Virus record (IMG/VR): IMGVR_UViG_2657244940_000002
Location: 1 to 11,700 of that record
Strand: one strand, 5' to 3'
Length of the DNA: 11,700 nucleotides
Origin: a virus
Taxonomy: Duplodnaviria; Heunggongvirae; Uroviricota; Caudoviricetes
A program made the translations under genes and the position numbers. A model generated the notes under the pieces. The model made no database searches and had not been told where the DNA came from. It worked only from the letters and a program-made list of their open reading frames with translations. Of this stretch, positions 1,721 through 6,998 are shown piece after piece. Numbering within the stretch: position 1 is the first letter of the stretch; each line of letters begins with the position of its first letter.

Positions 1721-4201
1721 TTAAAAATCAGCCTGACTCGGGATCAGTTTTTGTATCGTAGCTGTAACGTATTTTGCCTGGTGACGGGCGTCATCCAGTG
1801 CATTGTGGCGCACGCCTTCGAATGGAATAACGGTTCTGGCATCAAAGTCGATTGTTTTTCCCAGCTCAACGATTGTGCGTACATCGCGATCGTTGTGGTA
1901 GCGCCACGGGCAGGGGATGTCCAGACGTTCGTATGAGGTGCGCAAAATTGCGTTATCGAAAGTCGCATCATTACCCCATACCTGAACGAATTTTTCATCT
2001 GAGTATTCGTTGATGAACTCCCGAAACTGCGAAAGGGCATCCTTCAGTTTTACCTGGTCTGTTAAAATGGCAGCTCTGGCTTCACTGGACTGCTTCAGCC
2101 ACCATTCGATGGTTCCACCGTCAGGAACAGCCCCTGTATTCATTGCGTCAGTCAGACTGATAACGATATAAAATACTGGCCCGATTTCCCCTGTTTGTGG
2201 GTCGAAGAAAACCGCACCAATAACCACGATGGGCGCATTGGTGTTGGTTCCCATTGTTTCAAGGTCGATCATCAAGTGGTACCACACTCTGCTGGTGGAT
2301 GTGATAACGTGATGACCGTTCACCGCAATTAAGGGATCTGCCGTCTCGCCAGTTTCATTATCGCTGGCGTGGTCCTGAGCGCTGCCAGCATTCTCCTTGT
2401 GTGGATGTTCAGCGCCTTCCATTTCCTCCGGATCATTTTCCTGAACTTCAACCTGATTCTCTTCATTGAATGTTTCCTGGTATGTTGCGTCGCCCATCAC
2501 CGCGCCACAATCAGGGCAGTTGCCGCCGCCGGTCTGACCGCAGGCGGTGCAGATCTTTTCCGGTTCCTGTTGCACTACTGGTTCAGGTTGTTTCGTTTCT
2601 GGCTCATTTTGTAACGCATTTGGGCTGTTTTGTTCCGCTTTCTGGCCGTTCTGTTCCGTTTCTTGCTGGTTCTGGTTCACAGAATCGCGGGTTTCCATCC
2701 CCTTCACCCATTTCGGATCATTCGGATCGCTAATTCCTGCAACAAATTCACCACGTGATACTGCAAGCAGTTCATCGGCGTCAGGCTGGCTGATATTGGC
2801 TGCCTGCATAATGTTGTTTACTTCGTCAGCGGTAACTTTTACCGGCCCTGGTTGTGCGGTCGTGTCAGATGCACCAGTATTTTGTTGTGAACCTGAGTAT
2901 GTACTGTTTTTGCGGACGAAATATTCTTCTTTCGTGATTTCAGTAGCCCCGGCAGCCAGTGCCTTATCCAGACCAGAAAGTTTGTTTGCGCGACCGTATT
3001 TTTCGCCATCCTTGTCGGTGAAGAGGAAGTAGAACGGCCCCTCACGCTCTACAGATGGTTCGACTTCCACTTTGCATTCGGTTTTTTCGTTGTCCGGAAT
3101 TGCCGTTTCCACTGCATCAGTTTCTGGTACTGGCGACGAGAGAGTATCAGTTGCGATCTGATTTGTTCCTTCATCTTCAAACACGCCCTTTGTAGTCAGG
3201 TATTCAGTAATGTATTTGTTCAGTGCCACAGGGTCTTTGTGAATGTCGATCGGACGCTCACGGACAAGGCCAAAAATAGTCTGGCGGTCGTAGCGAAGGG
3301 CATCAGGCTGTTTGCGCATTGATGCTGAGATACGCTTCCAGTCTTCGCGGTCGTTGTTGATAACTTCATTTTTTGCCCAGCGATGGATGCTGCCGTCAAT
3401 GTTTCCGGCATCAATGTCACCAGGCCACAGAGCGTAGGCCAGTTCATCATCCAGTGTTTTCCATGTCTGCTTATATTCGCGACGAATGACTGCAGTGACA
3501 GGGGAGATATTTTCTGCTGAGTTTTCAGTGTGCTGTCGGTTGACTCTGGCGCGGGCGAGATCAACAGCAGACGTGTATTTTCCGGTTTCCTTGCGTTCAC
3601 CTTCGCGACGTTTTTTCCAGATGCGCATCTCTGCCTGAATTTCGGGCCATTTAGCTCCAGGCTTACATTTATGCTTAACCCACCCGATGGCATGCAACTT
3701 AAGTTCTGGATACATGGCGTTAACTTCTGGCATTTTCATCAACGCTTCAACGATATGTCCGTCGAATGTTGCCATGTCTTCCTGCAACAGTTCCTGTGCA
3801 CTAATCACCATATCAACGGTGATGTTTTCACATGTGTCGAACTTAACCATGACAGCGTTCTGTACTTCAGGGGCCAGCTTGTCAAAAGTGACGTTCATCG
3901 GATCTGATTCAGTCTCAACCGGGACAAAGGAAGCTGACTCCTCATCCCAGCGGTTTTCCTGCATATATTCAGCATCCCAGGAATCGAGGGCAGGGCGGGG
4001 TATACCGGGTTTATCCTCGCAAACAAGAAATTTATAAGCGCAGTCCTGAGCAGCCGGATAATGTTCCAGGAATTGCCAGTGAAATTTTGCGCGGGCGCGA
4101 CGTTCATCACCGGCTTCAATGGCAGTGGCTACAGCGACTGCACCTTCTTCCTTTATTGCCTGTTCGTCCGGAATGGCGGCGCAAATAAAGACTTTACTCA
4201 T
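1721..4201 (-). CDS. Large phage exonuclease with C-terminal DEDDh (DnaQ-like) 3'-5' exonuclease domain
   Basis: 826-aa ORF with GAGG about 11 nt upstream of the ATG. C-terminal ~190 aa (nt 1724-2284) carry the three DEDDh motifs: MIDLETMG (Exo I), WGNDATFDN (Exo II), HNALDDARHQA (Exo III). Central Cx2C-x11-Cx2C zinc ribbon (CTACGQTGGGNCPDCG, nt ~2506-2551) flanked by acidic Q/E/P-rich linkers. It occupies the exo/recE slot of lambdoid prophages. Confidence 0.85.
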   Translation of the reverse strand: MSKVFICAAIPDEQAIKEEGAVAVATAIEAGDERRARAKFHWQFLEHYPAAQDCAYKFLVCEDKPGIPRPALDSWDAEYMQENRWDEESASFVPVETESDPMNVTFDKLAPEVQNAVMVKFDTCENITVDMVISAQELLQEDMATFDGHIVEALMKMPEVNAMYPELKLHAIGWVKHKCKPGAKWPEIQAEMRIWKKRREGERKETGKYTSAVDLARARVNRQHTENSAENISPVTAVIRREYKQTWKTLDDELAYALWPGDIDAGNIDGSIHRWAKNEVINNDREDWKRISASMRKQPDALRYDRQTIFGLVRERPIDIHKDPVALNKYITEYLTTKGVFEDEGTNQIATDTLSSPVPETDAVETAIPDNEKTECKVEVEPSVEREGPFYFLFTDKDGEKYGRANKLSGLDKALAAGATEITKEEYFVRKNSTYSGSQQNTGASDTTAQPGPVKVTADEVNNIMQAANISQPDADELLAVSRGEFVAGISDPNDPKWVKGMETRDSVNQNQQETEQNGQKAEQNSPNALQNEPETKQPEPVVQQEPEKICTACGQTGGGNCPDCGAVMGDATYQETFNEENQVEVQENDPEEMEGAEHPHKENAGSAQDHASDNETGETADPLIAVNGHHVITSTSRVWYHLMIDLETMGTNTNAPIVVIGAVFFDPQTGEIGPVFYIVISLTDAMNTGAVPDGGTIEWWLKQSSEARAAILTDQVKLKDALSQFREFINEYSDEKFVQVWGNDATFDNAILRTSYERLDIPCPWRYHNDRDVRTIVELGKTIDFDARTVIPFEGVRHNALDDARHQAKYVTATIQKLIPSQADF

Positions 4202-4281: not shown

Positions 4282-4485
4282 TTACGGTGCTGTTTTAAGT
4301 CCTGCCGGGATTTCGTTATTATCCATGTGAATAACTTTATCGACCGGATAGCAGTTACCGGGAATTTTTTGTTCTGCTGCGGCAGCCATGCATTCTTTCA
4401 TTGAACCGTAAATGTCAATAACCATGTCAACAGGCTCGCCAGTATTAAGAAAAACAGTCAGAGTGAGGGCAATAGTAGTATTCAT
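4282..4485 (-). CDS. ydfD: YdfD-like small membrane (lysis-type) protein
   Basis: 67-aa ORF starting at the internal ATG (MNTTIALTLTVFLNTGEPV…) with a hydrophobic N-terminal segment. Its ATG overlaps the dicB stop as ATGA. Synteny dicB-ydfD matches Qin prophage. The longer track ORF (to 4539) would overlap dicB. Confidence 0.6.
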   Translation of the reverse strand: MNTTIALTLTVFLNTGEPVDMVIDIYGSMKECMAAAAEQKIPGNCYPVDKVIHMDNNEIPAGLKTAP

Positions 4486-4670
4486 TGCCAGTATCCTTTT
4501 TGCATCGGGCGTAAACGTGCCAGCATTGAAAGAATGCATATTTTATTTAATAGCTCCCGTTCGTGTTTTCTCTTATTAATGGCATCTTCAGTAAATACAG
4601 GGTTACTGATTCTGACACCAATTTCAAAACAACCTTCAGACGTATTGACGTTTGGTAATAACGTTTCCAT
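4482..4670 (-). CDS. dicB: Cell-division inhibitor DicB
   Basis: 62-aa product METLLPNVNTSEGCFEIGVRISNPVFTEDAINKRKHERELLNKICILSMLARLRPMQKGYWQ closely matches my recollection of E. coli K-12 DicB (62 aa). GAGG lies 8 nt upstream of the ATG at 4670. The 94-aa track ORF is an upstream extension with no RBS. Confidence 0.8.
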   Translation of the reverse strand: METLLPNVNTSEGCFEIGVRISNPVFTEDAINKRKHERELLNKICILSMLARLRPMQKGYWQ

Positions 4671-4853
4671 TATCGCGTCCTCAACAATGAATTTTGTGAT
4701 GCGGTGCCTGGTGCCTCCAGGTGACGTTAACCAGTTAATAATTAACGCCGGATACAGAGAACCCACCCATAAGAACCAATACGGAAGTCAACTGGCCTTT
4801 TTAACTGTTCCGCGTGCGCTGAGCCGCATTCACCGCATCACAAAATTCACTTT

Positions 4854-4916
4854 AAAAGGGGCGGGTATCATGGGAAAAACAAAACGGATACCCGCCAAAA
4901 GGTAATCAACATGGGT
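4854..4916 (-). ncRNA. dicF: DicF-like small RNA (divergent homolog) with intrinsic terminator
   Basis: Minus-strand sequence …CCATGTTGATTACCTTTTGGCGGGTATCCGTTTTGTTTTTCCCATGATACCCGCCCCTTTT, about 175 nt upstream of dicB. It has a 10-bp stem (GGCGGGTATC/GATACCCGCC) followed by CCTTTT. The TTTGGCGG(G)TATC…GTTTT…CCGCCC(C)TTTT skeleton resembles my recollection of K-12 DicF, but the 5' and loop regions differ. Exact ends are uncertain. Confidence 0.45.
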
Positions 4917-5326
4917 TGTTGCAGCGGGGTTGTCACTCAGGCGTATGGTCAACCTGACAACCCGGTGGACATTTGCGAGGAACGGAGAACCCCCGCCATA
5001 CTTACCGCCGCGCCATTTCGCGGAGTGCCACAACCGGAAGCGCACGGTCGACGAAAATTTAACGACAGGCTATCTATGAACCAGCAACCTCGCCGTGCGC
5101 TTTCGCGTTATGCTCTGACTTTTCAGAGAAATATCCTTTCAGTAAACTGTCAGTGCCGGATGCTCACCCGTGTCCGGCGCACACACTCCACCTCACCCGT
5201 GGAGAACTCCTTAATTACCAACCCTCAGGAGGGTGAATGTTAAAATCAACGCTTATTGCTAAATGCCTTTATCAAAATCGCATGGTAAGCAGCATTTCAA
5301 TAGGCGAATCTGTAGTTAAAAGTATT

Positions 5327-5352
5327 TTCGAAGAGTACTTTCGAAGAGTACT
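5327..5352. repeat. Perfect 13-bp tandem duplication (TTCGAAGAGTACT x2)
   Basis: Read directly: …AGTATT TTCGAAGAGTACT TTCGAAGAGTACT TTTC…. Each unit contains the palindromes TTCGAA and AGTACT. It sits in AT-rich DNA downstream of the 135-aa cargo ORF. Confidence 0.8.
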
Positions 5353-5460
5353 TTTCTGGGCGTGATTTTAATAAATGGAATACCAAATTACCGCCAGCAG
5401 TTTCAACGCGTATTCTGAAAGCAACTGAAAGAGCAAGTACAATTCGCGTTAACTATTTCA

Positions 5461-5868
5461 TTAAAGATTTGTGGGATCTTTGATATCCACAGAGCCTAAA
5501 GTATGTGCATATGGATGTGCTATTGTGCGCCCCTGTAAATTTGCATCGTTTTCTAAATCTTTTGATTTCAACAGAACATCAGCAAGACTCTGAATCATGC
5601 AGAGATAATCAAAAACAGTTGCCGTTTCTGTTCTGATTGCTGAAATAACATGACCATTCAGGCAAACAGAAATTACCCGTTCATCAATATCGTTTTTCTG
5701 TTTTTGATTATCAGAACCATATAGCCCTGAAAAAGCATTGCGCACATTACGAACCATATTATCGATGGTTTCTTTTTTGGTGTATGCCGGGTCAATTTTC
5801 ACCAGACTATCACCGAGTGTCGTTGCAGCAATTATCTGGATTTCTTTTGGTAAATCTTTAAATTCCAT
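5461..5868 (-). CDS. Hypothetical protein, AT-rich cargo (moron-like) gene inside the dicB operon
   Basis: 135-aa ORF (MEFKDLPKEIQIIAATTLGDSLVK…) with GAGG 7 nt upstream of the ATG. It starts 22 nt after the ydfC-like stop on the same strand. The local sequence is markedly more AT-rich than its flanks. No motif I recognise, and no predicted transmembrane segment. Confidence 0.7.
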   Translation of the reverse strand: MEFKDLPKEIQIIAATTLGDSLVKIDPAYTKKETIDNMVRNVRNAFSGLYGSDNQKQKNDIDERVISVCLNGHVISAIRTETATVFDYLCMIQSLADVLLKSKDLENDANLQGRTIAHPYAHTLGSVDIKDPTNL

Positions 5869-5890
5869 TATTAGCCTCGTTGGTTAACCA

Positions 5891-6109
5891 TTAACGTGGG
5901 TATGTAATCATTCTGGCAATGCTTAATGCCGCTGCTTTTTCCAGATTGGTGATATCCTGCTCCAGAGCGGACAGATTTTCAGCCTGCTTAGCCCTGGCTT
6001 CATTGGCCCATTTCAGGTCCTGCGCAGCCTTAATTTTCTGGTGCATCCACTCATAAAGTTCATCATCGGTATAGTCTGGCGCGATGATGACGGGTTCTCG
6101 TTTCTGCAT
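5891..6109 (-). CDS. ydfC: YdfC-like small protein (dicB operon)
   Basis: 72-aa ORF with GAGGAA 7 nt upstream of the ATG, in the position of ydfC (dicA-ydfA-ydfB-ydfC order as in Qin). Predicted helical/coiled-coil C-terminus. Confidence 0.65.
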   Translation of the reverse strand: MQKREPVIIAPDYTDDELYEWMHQKIKAAQDLKWANEARAKQAENLSALEQDITNLEKAAALSIARMITYPR

Positions 6110-6138: not shown

Positions 6139-6267
6139 TCAGCCGTTAGATTTTGCCGGGCTGGAAAGCGCCTGTTTAAATTCGCTGAAGCTGAGGGCTT
6201 CTTCGCCTTCGGCAAGGCCTTCGAAGTATTCTTCGTAAGCCTTTTCCATGATTGTGTCGAAATCCAT
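6139..6267 (-). CDS. ydfB: YdfB-like small protein (42 aa)
   Basis: Not in the ORF track (too short). Manual translation gives MDFDTIMEKAYEEYFEGLAEGEEALSFSEFKQALSSPAKSNG with AGGTGG upstream. Its ATG at 6267 lies immediately after the ydfA-like stop (6269-6271). Size and position match ydfB of Qin. Confidence 0.5.
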   Translation of the reverse strand: MDFDTIMEKAYEEYFEGLAEGEEALSFSEFKQALSSPAKSNG

Positions 6268-6268
6268 A

Positions 6269-6424
6269 TCACCCACCTGAATCTCTTTCCAGCCAGCGAC
6301 GCGCTCCAGATTCGGTTTTAAACGTTTTGCTTTTGGTATACGTCATTGCGGTGAACGTGCCGTCCTGGTTTGGAAACACGCCGTACACCAGAGATTCGTT
6401 GTTGCCAAGATCGATAGTATCCAT
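6269..6424 (-). CDS. ydfA: YdfA-like small protein (51 aa, DUF1391-like)
   Basis: Internal start of the 77-aa track ORF: MDTIDLGNNESLVYGVFPNQDGTFTAMTYTKSKTFKTESGARRWLERDSGG, with GAGG 5 nt upstream of the ATG at 6424. It is the first gene downstream of the predicted dicB-operon promoter. The longer N-terminal extension would run into the promoter. Confidence 0.6.
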   Translation of the reverse strand: MDTIDLGNNESLVYGVFPNQDGTFTAMTYTKSKTFKTESGARRWLERDSGG

Positions 6425-6565: not shown

Positions 6566-6599
6566 CCAAAAAGATAACGCATTGATTGCGTTATCTTTT
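6566..6599 (-). terminator. Intrinsic terminator at the 3' end of dicA
   Basis: Minus strand: CAAAAGATAACGCA-ATCAA-TGCGTTATC-TTTTTGG, a 9-11 bp stem, 5-nt loop and U-tract. It overlaps the dicA stop codon and sits between dicA and the downstream operon promoter. The plus-strand reading also ends in a T-rich tail, so it may act bidirectionally. Confidence 0.45.
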
Positions 6600-6998
6600 G
6601 TTTGTTCGTTGACGGGCTTTTAATAACTCTTCAAAGAGTTTGTTGAAATTTTTTACTCGGGCGCGCATCTCGGTGAGCTGAGCATCCTGTTCTGATTCAG
6701 GCAATGCATTAAAAAGCTCAAGGAGCTCATGTTCTTTGGGGGATAGAGCAACTGGCTCCTCAATAGGTGGTGATGGCTGCTTGTCTTCATCGCCAAATAG
6801 AATCCATGTTGGCGAGCACTGCAGTACTTTGCTGAGGGCAAAAAGATTCTTTCCTGTAGGTTCGCTATCATCCCGCTCCCATTGTGAAACCGATACGTGA
6901 GAAATTTTCAGGGCTTTAGCAAGAGACCTTTGGGTGTATTTGAGGTTTTTTCGGCGATATCTAATGCGTTCGCCAATGGTTAAATTTTTTGTATCCAT
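6591..6998 (-). CDS. dicA: Prophage repressor DicA (XRE-family HTH, P22 C2-like)
   Basis: 135-aa ORF with an N-terminal HTH (…YTQRSLAKALKISHVSVSQWERD…). It closely matches my recollection of K-12 DicA (same length). It is divergent from a cro-like gene, with palindromic operators in the intergenic region. Confidence 0.85.
   Translation of the reverse strand: MDTKNLTIGERIRYRRKNLKYTQRSLAKALKISHVSVSQWERDDSEPTGKNLFALSKVLQCSPTWILFGDEDKQPSPPIEEPVALSPKEHELLELFNALPESEQDAQLTEMRARVKNFNKLFEELLKARQRTNKR

What the first reader, a model, noticed from the sequence alone, without database searches (positions are those of the whole stretch)
5240..5890. AT-rich 135-aa cargo gene inserted into the dicB operon between ydfC and DicF
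In the Qin arrangement as I recall it, ydfC is followed directly by dicF and dicB. Here a compositionally distinct AT-rich segment of about 650 bp sits between them. It carries a well-formed ORF (5461-5868, minus strand, GAGG RBS) that starts 22 nt after ydfC and would be co-transcribed from the DicA-repressed promoter. The protein has no motif I recognise. This operon is the counterpart of the lambda PL region (kil, ral, sieB and similar), and DicB itself alters phage susceptibility, so a moron here is a plausible superinfection-exclusion, anti-defence or host-takeover factor. That functional guess is inference only.
Basis: partly seen in the sequence, partly recalled or inferred. Interest (0 to 1): 0.75.

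Follow-up and report, generated by a model that had tools for sequence, protein, structure and literature searches.

The report
Convergent orphan gene pair in prophage
The 135-aa gene is real, but it is one half of a widespread, unstudied two-gene prophage cassette: an early-operon gene plus a small opposite-strand gene, broken here by a 13-bp duplication. The layout matches recently described prophage defence/self-immunity pairs.

Summary
About 640 AT-rich bases (window ~5233-5871) sit between ydfC and the long leader that precedes the DicF position. E. coli K-12 Qin lacks exactly this stretch.

- **ORF135** (5461-5868, minus strand) has an N-terminal helical hairpin plus a ~75-aa "M" domain.
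- **p77** is a convergent 77-aa gene (5237-5483, plus strand) whose 3' end overlaps ORF135 by 23 bp. Here it is frameshifted by a 13-bp tandem duplication, seen in only 1 of 5426 complete E. coli genomes.

The M/p77 pair is conserved across Enterobacterales prophages. 75 of 80 M loci carry a convergent, 3'-overlapping p77, and 79 of 80 p77 loci carry M. M sits in the repressor-controlled early-left operon.

The slot is polymorphic in complete E. coli genomes:
- empty: 2799
- this cassette: 646
- two other forward-plus-convergent cassettes: 594 and 8

Neither protein matches Pfam, NCBIfam, PADLOC, PDB or phi80 Tai/Ati.

Best reading (about 0.4): p77 is a lysogeny-expressed defence or exclusion protein, and ORF135 is its cognate self-immunity protein made on induction, as in TERi, Tai/Ati and BstA/aba. 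Function is inferred, not shown.

The parts
5461..5868 (-). ORF135: the forward (operon-strand) gene of the cassette, 135 aa, intact. Residues 1-55 (5704-5868) form the N-terminal helical-hairpin module. Residues 60-135 (5464-5691) form the M domain.
   Evidence: ORF and translation. PHROG 1363 full length, PHROG 23433 on residues 54-128. Modular hits in HMMER against 1.84e9 representatives. AF2 model pLDDT 77.9, with H8-23, H32-54, a disordered linker at 53-60, then beta-beta-alpha-alpha. dN/dS 0.48.
5237..5483 (+). p77 pseudogene: the convergent 77-aa partner gene. Its 3' end overlaps the 3' end of ORF135 by 23 bp. The reading frame is broken here, leaving a 42-aa stub (5237-5365).
   Evidence: Intact 77-aa orthologues in O157:H7, strain E400634 and phage Evi. 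PHROG 10348 at E 1e-47. Annotated 'frameshifted' in the closest genome, NZ_CP025847. Family-wide purifying selection (dN/dS ~0.1 between genera).
5330..5355 (+). 13-bp tandem duplication (GAAGAGTACTTTC / GAAGAGTACTTTT) that frameshifts p77.
   Evidence: Alignment with intact alleles. Only 1 of 5426 complete genomes (strain 602354) shares it; 605 others match the 81-bp probe only as far as the duplication.
5130..5236 (+). Structured leader upstream of the p77 start. It has two hairpins (GCCGGA..UCCGGC and CUCCAC..GUGGAG), then a helix enclosing the AGGAGG Shine-Dalgarno and the AUG.
   Evidence: RNA fold of -36.8 kcal/mol, z = -3.46 on the + strand against z = -0.32 on the - strand. Other genera carry an analogous element plus a hairpin that overlaps the SD and has a covarying stem. 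The 63-aa and 69-aa ORFs of the other cassettes have anti-SD hairpins too.
5869..5890 (-). 22-nt ydfC-ORF135 spacer with the GAGG ribosome-binding site; left edge of the cassette.
   Evidence: This junction plus the first ~20 nt of the ORF are 100% identical in hundreds of genomes that carry other cargo: hits H51-H60.
5891..6109 (-). ydfC (72 aa), immediately upstream in the same operon. YdfC-like domains are fused to M or to the C module in other genera.
   Evidence: Fusion proteins P0034, P0082, P0085, P0098 and L018/L021/L034.
4901..5233 (-). Conserved GC-rich untranslated stretch between the cassette and the DicF position. K-12 has it too. Its cassette-proximal end is the p77 leader on the other strand.
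   Evidence: Alignments A1 and A2. [quoted passage not shown]
4854..4905 (-). DicF-position hairpin plus U-run, a divergent allele (context only).
   Evidence: No Rfam DicF hit in the window, against 76.7 bits in K-12.
6591..6998 (-). dicA repressor, with ydfA (6269-6424) and ydfB (6139-6267) downstream: the operon context that puts ORF135 under repressor control.

Best explanation
The insert is a two-gene, opposite-strand (noncontiguous-operon) prophage module.

Proposed mechanism:
1. p77, the small gene antisense to the early-left (dicB/PL-type) operon, is made in the lysogen from its own structured-leader transcript. It acts as an exclusion or defence effector against incoming phages.
2. 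ORF135 lies on the operon strand, directly behind ydfC. It is made only when the DicA-type repressor is lifted.
3. Its M domain binds and neutralises the cognate p77, so the prophage's own lytic cycle is not blocked.
4. Operon read-through, which is fully antisense to p77, also shuts p77 down.
5. The N-terminal helical hairpin of ORF135 is an exchangeable oligomerisation or adaptor module.

In this window the putative defence half is dead (13-bp duplication), so only the putative immunity half remains.

Shown: gene structures, pairing, conservation, slot polymorphism, operon position.
Inferred: expression timing, binding and any defence activity.
For: 1. **Obligate pairing and fixed geometry.** 75 of 80 IMG/VR loci found with the M profile have a convergent p77 whose 3' end overlaps M by 23-53 bp. 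79 of 80 loci found with p77 have a convergent M; the 80th is cut by a contig end.
2. **The pair is the unit kept.** The M N-terminus varies (none, ClpX zinc finger, YdfC-like, MQFD.., MEFKDLP..), yet p77 stays. M and p77 subtypes also co-vary.
3. **M is on the repressor-controlled lytic strand.**
   - In E. coli it follows ydfABC behind dicA.
   - In Hafnia, a terminator, a promoter-like TTGACT/TAAACT pair and operator repeats shared with OR lie between cI and M. That makes M the first early-left gene.
4. **Same slot, alternating cargo.** Other cassettes pair unrelated forward genes (201 aa, 212 aa) with unrelated convergent small ORFs (63 aa, 69 aa) behind a similar leader. TERi shows the same pattern: a conserved promoter with alternating small opposite-strand genes (10.1101/2025.02.27.640495).
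5. **Precedents with this logic.**
   - TerI is 65 aa, lies on the opposite strand inside the early lytic module, and its anti-TerI genes sit in the operon.
   - Tai/Ati of phi80 form a noncontiguous operon with cognate binding (PMC11364771).
   - BstA/aba lies next to cI (PMC8585504).
6. **Both are real genes.** p77 dN/dS is ~0.1 between genera, and the ORF135 M domain is 0.37.
7. **Both look like soluble proteins.** Neither has a hydrophobic segment.
Against: - No defence phenotype, expression data or interaction data exist for either protein.
- PADLOC gives no hit. Profile comparison with phi80 TaiEcA/AtiEcA shows no similarity.
- A consensus sigma-70 scan finds no promoter upstream of p77 in the window.
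- The leader appears to sequester the Shine-Dalgarno. That fits a tightly limited or toxic product better than a constitutively made one.
- Outside E. coli, the strand on which that structure acts is unresolved.
- 5 of 80 M loci lack a detected p77.
- M/p77 co-variation could reflect linkage alone.
- In Hafnia and Klebsiella, M holds the first-gene position of the early operon, which could equally suit a regulator.
Confidence: 0.4

Rival explanations
1. Toxin-antitoxin or addiction-type pair. One protein is toxic, probably p77, whose translation is held down by the SD-sequestering leader. The other protein, or the antisense operon transcript, neutralises it. The module then stabilises the prophage or aborts infection by killing the cell.
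For: - Two small, co-inherited, co-varying genes.
- A leader that encloses the SD and AUG, as in tightly controlled toxin mRNAs.
- Fully antisense transcription by the operon (geometry).
- An orphaned partner left after loss of the other half, as in this window, is common for TA loci.
- Related prophages carry PaaA2-ParE nearby.
Against: - Convergent, separately controlled genes are atypical for protein-protein TA pairs, which are usually co-transcribed.
- There is no similarity to any Pfam, NCBIfam or PADLOC toxin or antitoxin family.
- p77 is neither a hydrophobic type I-like peptide nor a recognisable RNase fold.
- If M were the antitoxin it would be absent in the repressed lysogen, which is exactly where p77 would be made.
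Confidence: 0.2
2. ORF135 is a stand-alone early host-takeover or anti-host-defence factor, in the sense of lambda Ral, Kil or Gam. p77 is an unrelated lysogenic-conversion gene, or merely an antisense brake on the operon. The pairing would reflect shared regulation through overlapping 3' ends (like lambda cII/oop), not protein-protein neutralisation.
For: - ORF135 sits in the PL-type operon beside the known host-directed products DicB and DicF (PMC5069750).
- M is fused to modules that could engage host machinery, such as a ClpX-type zinc finger.
- M occurs without p77 in 5 of 80 loci and in the 201-aa form.
- The 23-53-bp 3' overlap is conserved.
Against: - The near-obligate M-p77 association across genera, despite mosaic flanks, and the matching subtype classes of the two proteins are hard to explain by regulation alone.
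- Strong protein-level constraint on p77 shows it is more than an antisense RNA.
Confidence: 0.15
3. A lysis-lysogeny regulatory pair. p77 would be a small lysogeny-maintenance or anti-induction factor and M its induction-time antagonist, or the reverse. Both would act on the prophage's own switch rather than on other phages.
For: - The module lies immediately next to the repressor/operator region, as the first early-left gene in Hafnia and Klebsiella.
- The two genes have opposite transcriptional polarity.
- Weak, sub-threshold hits to HutP and Ros/MucR regulators.
Against: - The slot is empty in about half of E. coli genomes and holds unrelated cassettes in others. The module is therefore dispensable for the switch.
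- No DNA-binding fold or HTH was detected.
- The Pfam hits are far below threshold.
Confidence: 0.1

Closest known systems
TERi system of Listeria comK prophages (TerI plus anti-TerI1/2; bioRxiv 10.1101/2025.02.27.640495)
   Same: - A very small defence gene (65 aa) sits on the opposite strand inside the early lytic operon and overlaps an operon gene.
- The immunity genes lie on the operon strand and are made on induction.
- A conserved expression platform carries alternating small genes in different prophages.
   Different: - There is no sequence relationship, and the host is Gram-positive.
- TerI is shown to be transcribed constitutively and to block the terminase. None of this has been tested for p77.
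- Here the overlap is tail-to-tail at the 3' ends, and the leader looks translationally closed.
Tai/Ati of coliphage phi80 and Salmonella prophages (PMC11364771)
   Same: - A noncontiguous operon in which the defence gene is antisense to a lytic operon.
- An adjacent small (76-aa) counter-defence protein binds its cognate partner.
- Occurs in E. coli lambdoid prophages.
   Different: - TaiEcA is 204 aa and lies in the Q-dependent late region.
- orf63 and orf64 overlap head-to-head, not tail-to-tail.
- hhalign finds no similarity of M or p77 to either protein.
BstA/aba of Salmonella phage BTP1 (PMC8585504)
   Same: - A prophage defence with cognate, allele-specific self-immunity.
- It is encoded next to the cI repressor, the same hot spot that the M/p77 module occupies in Klebsiella and Hafnia prophages.
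   Different: - BstA is a large protein on the cI strand.
- Its immunity determinant is a 63-bp DNA element, not a protein.
- There is no homology.
Lambda cII/oop-type convergent 3'-overlapping transcripts (own knowledge, not tested here)
   Same: Convergent transcription units whose 3' ends overlap by a few tens of nucleotides inside a phage early operon, which allows antisense or RNase III control.
   Different: oop is a non-coding RNA. Here both partners are conserved proteins.
PHROG families 1363, 23433 (M domain), 9419/2151/6937 (N module) and 10348 (p77)
   Same: ORF135 and p77 are bona fide members, at E 3e-42 and 1e-47.
   Different: All of these families are annotated 'unknown function'. 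PHROGs records neither the pairing nor the modular structure.

Membership tests
Opposite-strand (noncontiguous-operon) prophage defence / self-immunity pairs (TERi, Tai/Ati, Tha/Ith type) | A gene on the opposite strand interrupts a repressor- or antiterminator-controlled lytic operon | tested here: met
   p77 (5237-5483, + strand) lies inside the minus-strand dicA-ydfABC-ORF135-(DicF)-dicB operon. The same holds in Hafnia, Klebsiella and Citrobacter.
Opposite-strand (noncontiguous-operon) prophage defence / self-immunity pairs (TERi, Tai/Ati, Tha/Ith type) | An adjacent operon-strand gene is co-inherited as the cognate partner | tested here: met
   75/80 and 79/80 reciprocal co-occurrence with fixed geometry, and co-varying subtypes.
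Opposite-strand (noncontiguous-operon) prophage defence / self-immunity pairs (TERi, Tai/Ati, Tha/Ith type) | The opposite-strand gene is expressed in the lysogen from its own promoter | tested here: inconclusive
   The consensus scan finds no sigma-70 site upstream of p77. A conserved ..GGTGGTATC.. element resembles an extended -10 but also forms covarying helices. No transcript data are available.
Opposite-strand (noncontiguous-operon) prophage defence / self-immunity pairs (TERi, Tai/Ati, Tha/Ith type) | The opposite-strand gene protects against other phages, and the partner relieves self-inhibition on induction by binding it | not testable with these tools
   Needs plaque and induction assays and interaction tests.
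Tai / Ati protein families (phi80 orf63 / orf64) | Sequence homology to TaiEcA or AtiEcA | tested here: not met
   hhalign probabilities are 0.05-0.4%. tblastn of M and p77 against 50,697 phage records hits only phage Evi and the PPompW prophages, not phi80.
Known anti-phage defence protein families (PADLOC-DB v2) | A profile match to any defence-system component | tested here: not met
   0 families at E<=1 for ORF135 (window and O157 alleles) and for p77. The library dates from 2023 and predates Tai and TERi.
Moron (independently acquired accessory unit in a phage operon) | Present in some but absent from otherwise collinear relatives, with deviant base composition | tested here: met
   K-12 Qin lacks exactly this block. 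Genome counts: 2799 empty, 646 this cassette, 594 and 8 other cassettes. GC is 0.37 against ~0.5.
Moron (independently acquired accessory unit in a phage operon) | Its own promoter and terminator flank the cargo gene | tested here: not met
   For ORF135, no promoter-like site was found between ydfC and the ATG. The 22-nt spacer holds only an RBS, so the gene is operon-driven. For p77 the question remains open (see the row on lysogen expression from its own promoter).
Type II toxin-antitoxin families | Homology to a known toxin or antitoxin fold, and co-transcribed gene order | tested here: not met
   There are no Pfam, NCBIfam or PADLOC matches, even as a consensus of weak hits over family members. 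The genes are convergent, not co-transcribed.
   No hit in the window at the gathering threshold or at E<=10. The positive control, K-12, scores 76.7 bits.

The most novel reading that the evidence does not exclude
M/p77 is a previously unrecognised family of prophage defence plus protein self-immunity, widespread in Enterobacterales and present in about 12% of complete E. coli genomes, including O157:H7.
- A 77-aa lysogeny protein blocks incoming or resident phage development.
- Its translation is gated by a conserved pseudoknot-like, SD-sequestering leader.
- The first early-operon product neutralises it through a new ~75-aa domain, which evolution has fused to ClpX-zinc-finger, YdfC-like or helical-hairpin adaptors.
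- The ydfC-dicF gap would then be a dedicated exchange slot for such opposite-strand pairs.
Probability: 0.3. Interest if true: 0.75.

Novelty: new member of a known kind. Interest (0 to 1): 0.55.

Why it matters
If the reading is right, the dicB/PL-type early operon of Qin-like prophages holds a swap-in slot for small opposite-strand defence/immunity pairs.

- These prophages occur in most E. coli genomes, including enterohaemorrhagic and enterotoxigenic strains.
- Two orphan protein families (the M domain and p77) would gain a function.
- YdfC, a long-standing K-12 protein of unknown function, would be tied to the system through its fusions with M.
- The TERi/Tai design principle would extend to the early operons of enterobacterial lambdoid phages.
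- A compact, testable pair would be available: phage Evi and O157 prophages carry intact copies.

For this particular window the biological impact is smaller, because the putative effector gene is already inactivated.

Tried and rejected
- **Family searches.** Pfam, NCBIfam and PADLOC scans of ORF135 and p77 gave only sub-threshold noise (HutP 13.2 bits, Ros/MucR, YjdP). I rejected these.
- **Weak-hit consensus.** Pooling weak Pfam hits across 22 p77 and 11 M family members gave nothing consistent.
- **First AF2 run.** With the shallow E. coli-only alignment the model reached pLDDT 45.7 and was unusable.
- **Second AF2 run.** With 119 sequences the model reached pLDDT 77.9, but fold searches found nothing convincing.
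  - Foldseek against PDB and BFVD found nothing at E<=0.001, apart from a 52-aa N-module homologue in phage phi191.
  - The afdb50 library was unavailable.
- **PDB sequence-profile searches.** Nothing for M or p77.
- **"ORF135 is a truncated 201-aa protein."** Rejected. Its C-terminus matches the natural end of stand-alone M proteins.
- **Charge complementarity (acidic M, basic p77) as evidence for binding.** True for the E. coli alleles but not family-wide, so dropped.
- **Prevalence of the p77 frameshift.** I first read the 331 records in the >=99% identity class as the broken allele. They are mostly 40-bp junction hits. The duplication is in 1 genome only.
- **Strand assignment of the SD-overlapping hairpin outside E. 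coli.** Inconclusive: both strands fold equally well.
- **Genome-contig scan with the M profile.** It returned only one locus. An earlier attempt failed for lack of a conserved stretch.
- **Literature searches.** Searches by accession, PHROG id, phage Evi and ydfC/dicF found no study of these genes.
Full report
**1. Checking the observation**

The minus strand of the window carries a Qin-type early-left operon:
- dicA, 6591-6998
- ydfA, 6269-6424
- ydfB, 6139-6267
- ydfC, 5891-6109
- a 135-codon ORF, 5461-5868
- a GC-rich untranslated stretch, 4901-5233
- a hairpin plus U-run at the DicF position, ~4854-4905
- dicB, 4482-4670
- a DUF1482 gene
- an 826-aa exonuclease

The ORF starts 22 nt after the ydfC stop, behind a GAGG. 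GC falls to 0.365-0.38 over 5200-5900, against 0.555-0.57 and 0.485-0.505 on the two sides. Alignment with K-12 Qin shows that K-12 lacks exactly this ~640-bp block.

Three details need correction.
- The insert does not abut DicF. [quoted passage not shown]
- The DicF-position sequence here is a divergent allele. The Rfam DicF model does not detect it even at E<=10, although it scores 76.7 bits on K-12.
- The segment contains a second gene.

**2. The second gene**

RefSeq annotates two genes under the segment. In O157:H7, strain E400634 and phage Evi, a 77-aa ORF (p77) runs on the opposite strand. It starts right at the edge of the conserved leader and ends 23 bp inside the 3' end of ORF135.

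In the window this gene occupies 5237-5483. A 13-bp tandem duplication at 5330-5355 shifts the frame after codon 35. The lesion is recent and rare. An 81-bp probe across it is fully matched in only 1 of 5426 complete E. coli genomes (ETEC strain 602354, also the closest relative of the window). Another 605 genomes match only up to the duplication.

**3. How variable the slot is**

Counts among 5426 complete E. coli genomes:
- 2799 have the uninterrupted K-12-type ydfC/leader junction.
- 646 carry this cassette at >=80% coverage, including O157:H7, O26, O111 and O145.
- 594 carry a different cassette: a 212-aa forward gene plus a convergent 69-aa ORF.
- 8 carry a third: a 201-aa forward gene plus a convergent 63-aa ORF.

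Genomes can hold several dicB-type prophages, so these classes overlap. The forward genes share their first ~55 codons. The junction plus start, identical over 40 bp, occurs in hundreds of genomes with other cargo. The convergent ORFs are unrelated to each other, but all start behind a similar leader in which an anti-SD segment pairs with the Shine-Dalgarno. The ydfC-leader gap is thus an exchange slot for "forward gene plus convergent small gene" cassettes.

**4. Anatomy of ORF135**

ORF135 matches PHROG 1363 over its full length. Its first ~55 residues also match several other PHROGs, and residues 54-128 match PHROG 23433. All are of unknown function. Close homologues are confined to E. coli, plus one Salmonella.

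An exhaustive HMMER search of 1.84 billion representatives splits the 135/201-aa family into three modules:
- N, residues 1-55
- M, residues 60-133, which also occurs as stand-alone 75-90-aa proteins
- C, residues 141-201, present only in the 201-aa form

ORF135 ends where stand-alone M proteins end, so it is a complete N+M protein and not a truncation.

A profile of M finds 136 clusters across Citrobacter, Serratia, Hafnia, Klebsiella, Enterobacter, Dickeya, Pectobacterium, Erwinia, Yersinia and Cronobacter. Some are fused to a ClpX-type C4 zinc finger (PF06689), to YdfC-like domains, or to other N-termini.

With this deeper alignment AlphaFold2 gives pLDDT 77.9. The model has a two-helix hairpin (8-23, 32-54), a disordered linker, then beta-hairpin, helix, helix. 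The nearly invariant positions are G72, T80, D87, Y88, L105, E106, A109, G113, T115 and G125.

**5. The pair is the conserved unit**

In Klebsiella, Hafnia and Citrobacter prophages, the M gene is followed by a convergent ~77-aa ORF that overlaps its 3' end. That ORF is homologous to E. coli p77, at 58-62% and 32% identity.

The association is systematic.
- Of 80 IMG/VR loci retrieved with the M profile, 75 have a convergent p77 overlapping by 23-53 bp.
- Of 80 loci retrieved with p77, 79 have a convergent M, and the remaining one is cut by the contig end.

The N-terminal extension of M varies freely, yet p77 stays. Three M C-terminal classes go with three p77 classes (MLKST.., MTRSD.., MKRSD..).

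The p77 family has 58 clusters, extends to Morganella, Providencia, Xenorhabdus and Photorhabdus, and has no annotation anywhere. Both genes are under purifying selection. p77 dN/dS is about 0.1 between genera with synonymous sites saturated. For ORF135, window against O157, it is 0.48 overall and 0.37 in M. Neither protein has a hydrophobic segment.

**6. Position and control**

In E. coli the M gene is operon-driven behind dicA-ydfABC.

In Hafnia, the sequence between cI and M contains a terminator and then a promoter-like TTGACT/TAAACT pair. That pair is embedded in repeats shared with the cI-cro operator region. M is therefore the first early-left gene and should be repressed in the lysogen. 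p77 is antisense to that operon.

Upstream of p77, all non-E. coli loci share an element GCCUG..CCAC..CAGGC..GUGG-UAUC.
- Its arms are interleaved, and it shows a few compensatory or wobble changes.
- It is followed by a hairpin whose stem sequence differs between lineages but always pairs.
- That hairpin overlaps the Shine-Dalgarno.

In the window, the corresponding 116 nt fold markedly better than shuffles on the p77 strand (z = -3.46) but not on the operon strand (z = -0.32). Outside E. coli the strand is unresolved. A simple sigma-70 scan finds no promoter for p77.

**7. Interpretation**

The layout has four features:
- a small gene on the opposite strand inside a repressor-controlled lytic operon;
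- an adjacent, co-inherited, co-varying operon-strand partner;
- a conserved expression platform with alternating small genes;
- a location next to the immunity region.

This is the layout of recently described prophage defence systems with cognate self-immunity.
- TERi in Listeria: the 65-aa TerI lies on the opposite strand in the early module, and the anti-TerI genes lie in the operon.
- Tai/Ati of phi80 and Salmonella prophages: a noncontiguous operon with cognate binding, where loss of Ati selects for disruption of Tai.
- BstA/aba next to cI in BTP1.

I therefore favour, at about 0.4, that p77 is a lysogeny-time exclusion or defence effector. ORF135 would be its induction-time neutraliser, and the antisense operon transcript would help switch p77 off.

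M and p77 are not members of the Tai/Ati families. hhalign probabilities are below 0.5%, and the geometry is different. They match nothing in PADLOC. The claim is therefore "works like", not "is a".

Rival explanations:
- a TA or abortive pair (0.2), favoured by the closed leader;
- a stand-alone early host-directed factor with p77 as a regulatory or unrelated partner (0.15);
- a lysis-lysogeny regulatory pair (0.1).

In this window the p77 half is inactivated, so whatever the module does, only ORF135 can still act.

**8. Verdict**

It is a new, uncharacterised member of an emerging class rather than a new kind of system. The copy in this window is half-decayed. Interest is moderate, at 0.55. 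The family as a whole would deserve more if the defence/immunity reading is confirmed experimentally.

Noticed in passing
window 4854-4905 (-): The DicF position holds a divergent hairpin plus U-run (GGCGGGTATC..GATACCCGCC). It lacks 9 nt of K-12 DicF and has a different loop. Rfam DicF (RF00039) does not hit the window, the O157 locus L002 or L007, yet scores 76.7 bits on K-12. At least three alleles exist at this position, so DicF target specificity may differ between prophages.
   Followed up: partly
window 4901-5233 (-): The 340-nt GC-rich stretch (0.555-0.57) between the cassette and the DicF position is almost invariant between K-12, O157 and the window, while flanking genes diverge by 5-15%. 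A 110-codon ORF on the + strand (4911-5243) ends overlapping the p77 start codon. Phage Evi has a 63-aa CDS annotated in this stretch. I did not assess coding potential or RNA structure.
   Followed up: no
L017-L074, ~40-75 nt upstream of the p77 start (e.g. L014 5470-5505 on the - strand): A conserved element GCCUG-N-CCAC-N-CAGGC-N-GUGG-UAUC has interleaved arms and looks pseudoknot-like. It shows GCCGGG/CCCGGC and CCACA/UGUGG compensatory variants and U.G wobbles. It could also be read as an extended -10 (TGGTATC). No Rfam family matches it. It is a candidate new cis-regulatory motif.
   Followed up: partly
window 4693-4847 (-): Sub-threshold Rfam match to STnc100 (33.5 bits, gathering score 47, E = 3e-5), between the DicF-position hairpin and dicB.
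   Followed up: no
L018, L021, L034 (193-203-aa proteins); P0034, P0082, P0085, P0098: YdfC-like domains are fused in one polypeptide to the M domain or to the C module in Yersinia/Serratia-type prophages, and in one E. coli deletion variant. This Rosetta-stone hint suggests that YdfC, of unknown function in K-12, works together with ORF135-family proteins.
   Followed up: partly
P0110, P0155, P0159, P0174; L013 5001-5420: In Citrobacter and Yersinia prophages the M domain is fused to an N-terminal ClpX-type C4 zinc finger (PF06689). This raises the possibility that the variable N-modules are dimerisation or protease-adaptor domains.
   Followed up: no
L014 5440-5725: In the Hafnia prophage, the region just beyond the p77 start contains a long-range helix (CACACAACTGTATGAGTATTGC / GCAATGCTCATACAGTTGTGGTG). 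A phage-borne tRNA-Asn (5644-5725) directly follows it, at the place where E. coli prophages carry DicF.
   Followed up: partly
L006 4001-4444 (phage PA2 gp25) and other Stx2a phages: Homologues of the N module alone (~45% identity over 70 residues), with other C-termini, sit in the early-left operon of Stx-converting phages downstream of the recombination genes. The module is therefore a widely reused N-terminal cassette.
   Followed up: no
L008 2694-3172: A related dicB-type prophage carries a PaaA2-ParE toxin-antitoxin pair between the repressor gene and ydfA. This is another accessory insertion point in the same operon.
   Followed up: no
window 1721-4201 (-): The 826-aa 'exonuclease' downstream of dicB/DUF1482 has a long acidic, Q/E/N-rich low-complexity middle and a C-terminal Rv2179c-like 3'-5' exonuclease domain. 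Related loci have versions of 793-821 aa.
   Followed up: no
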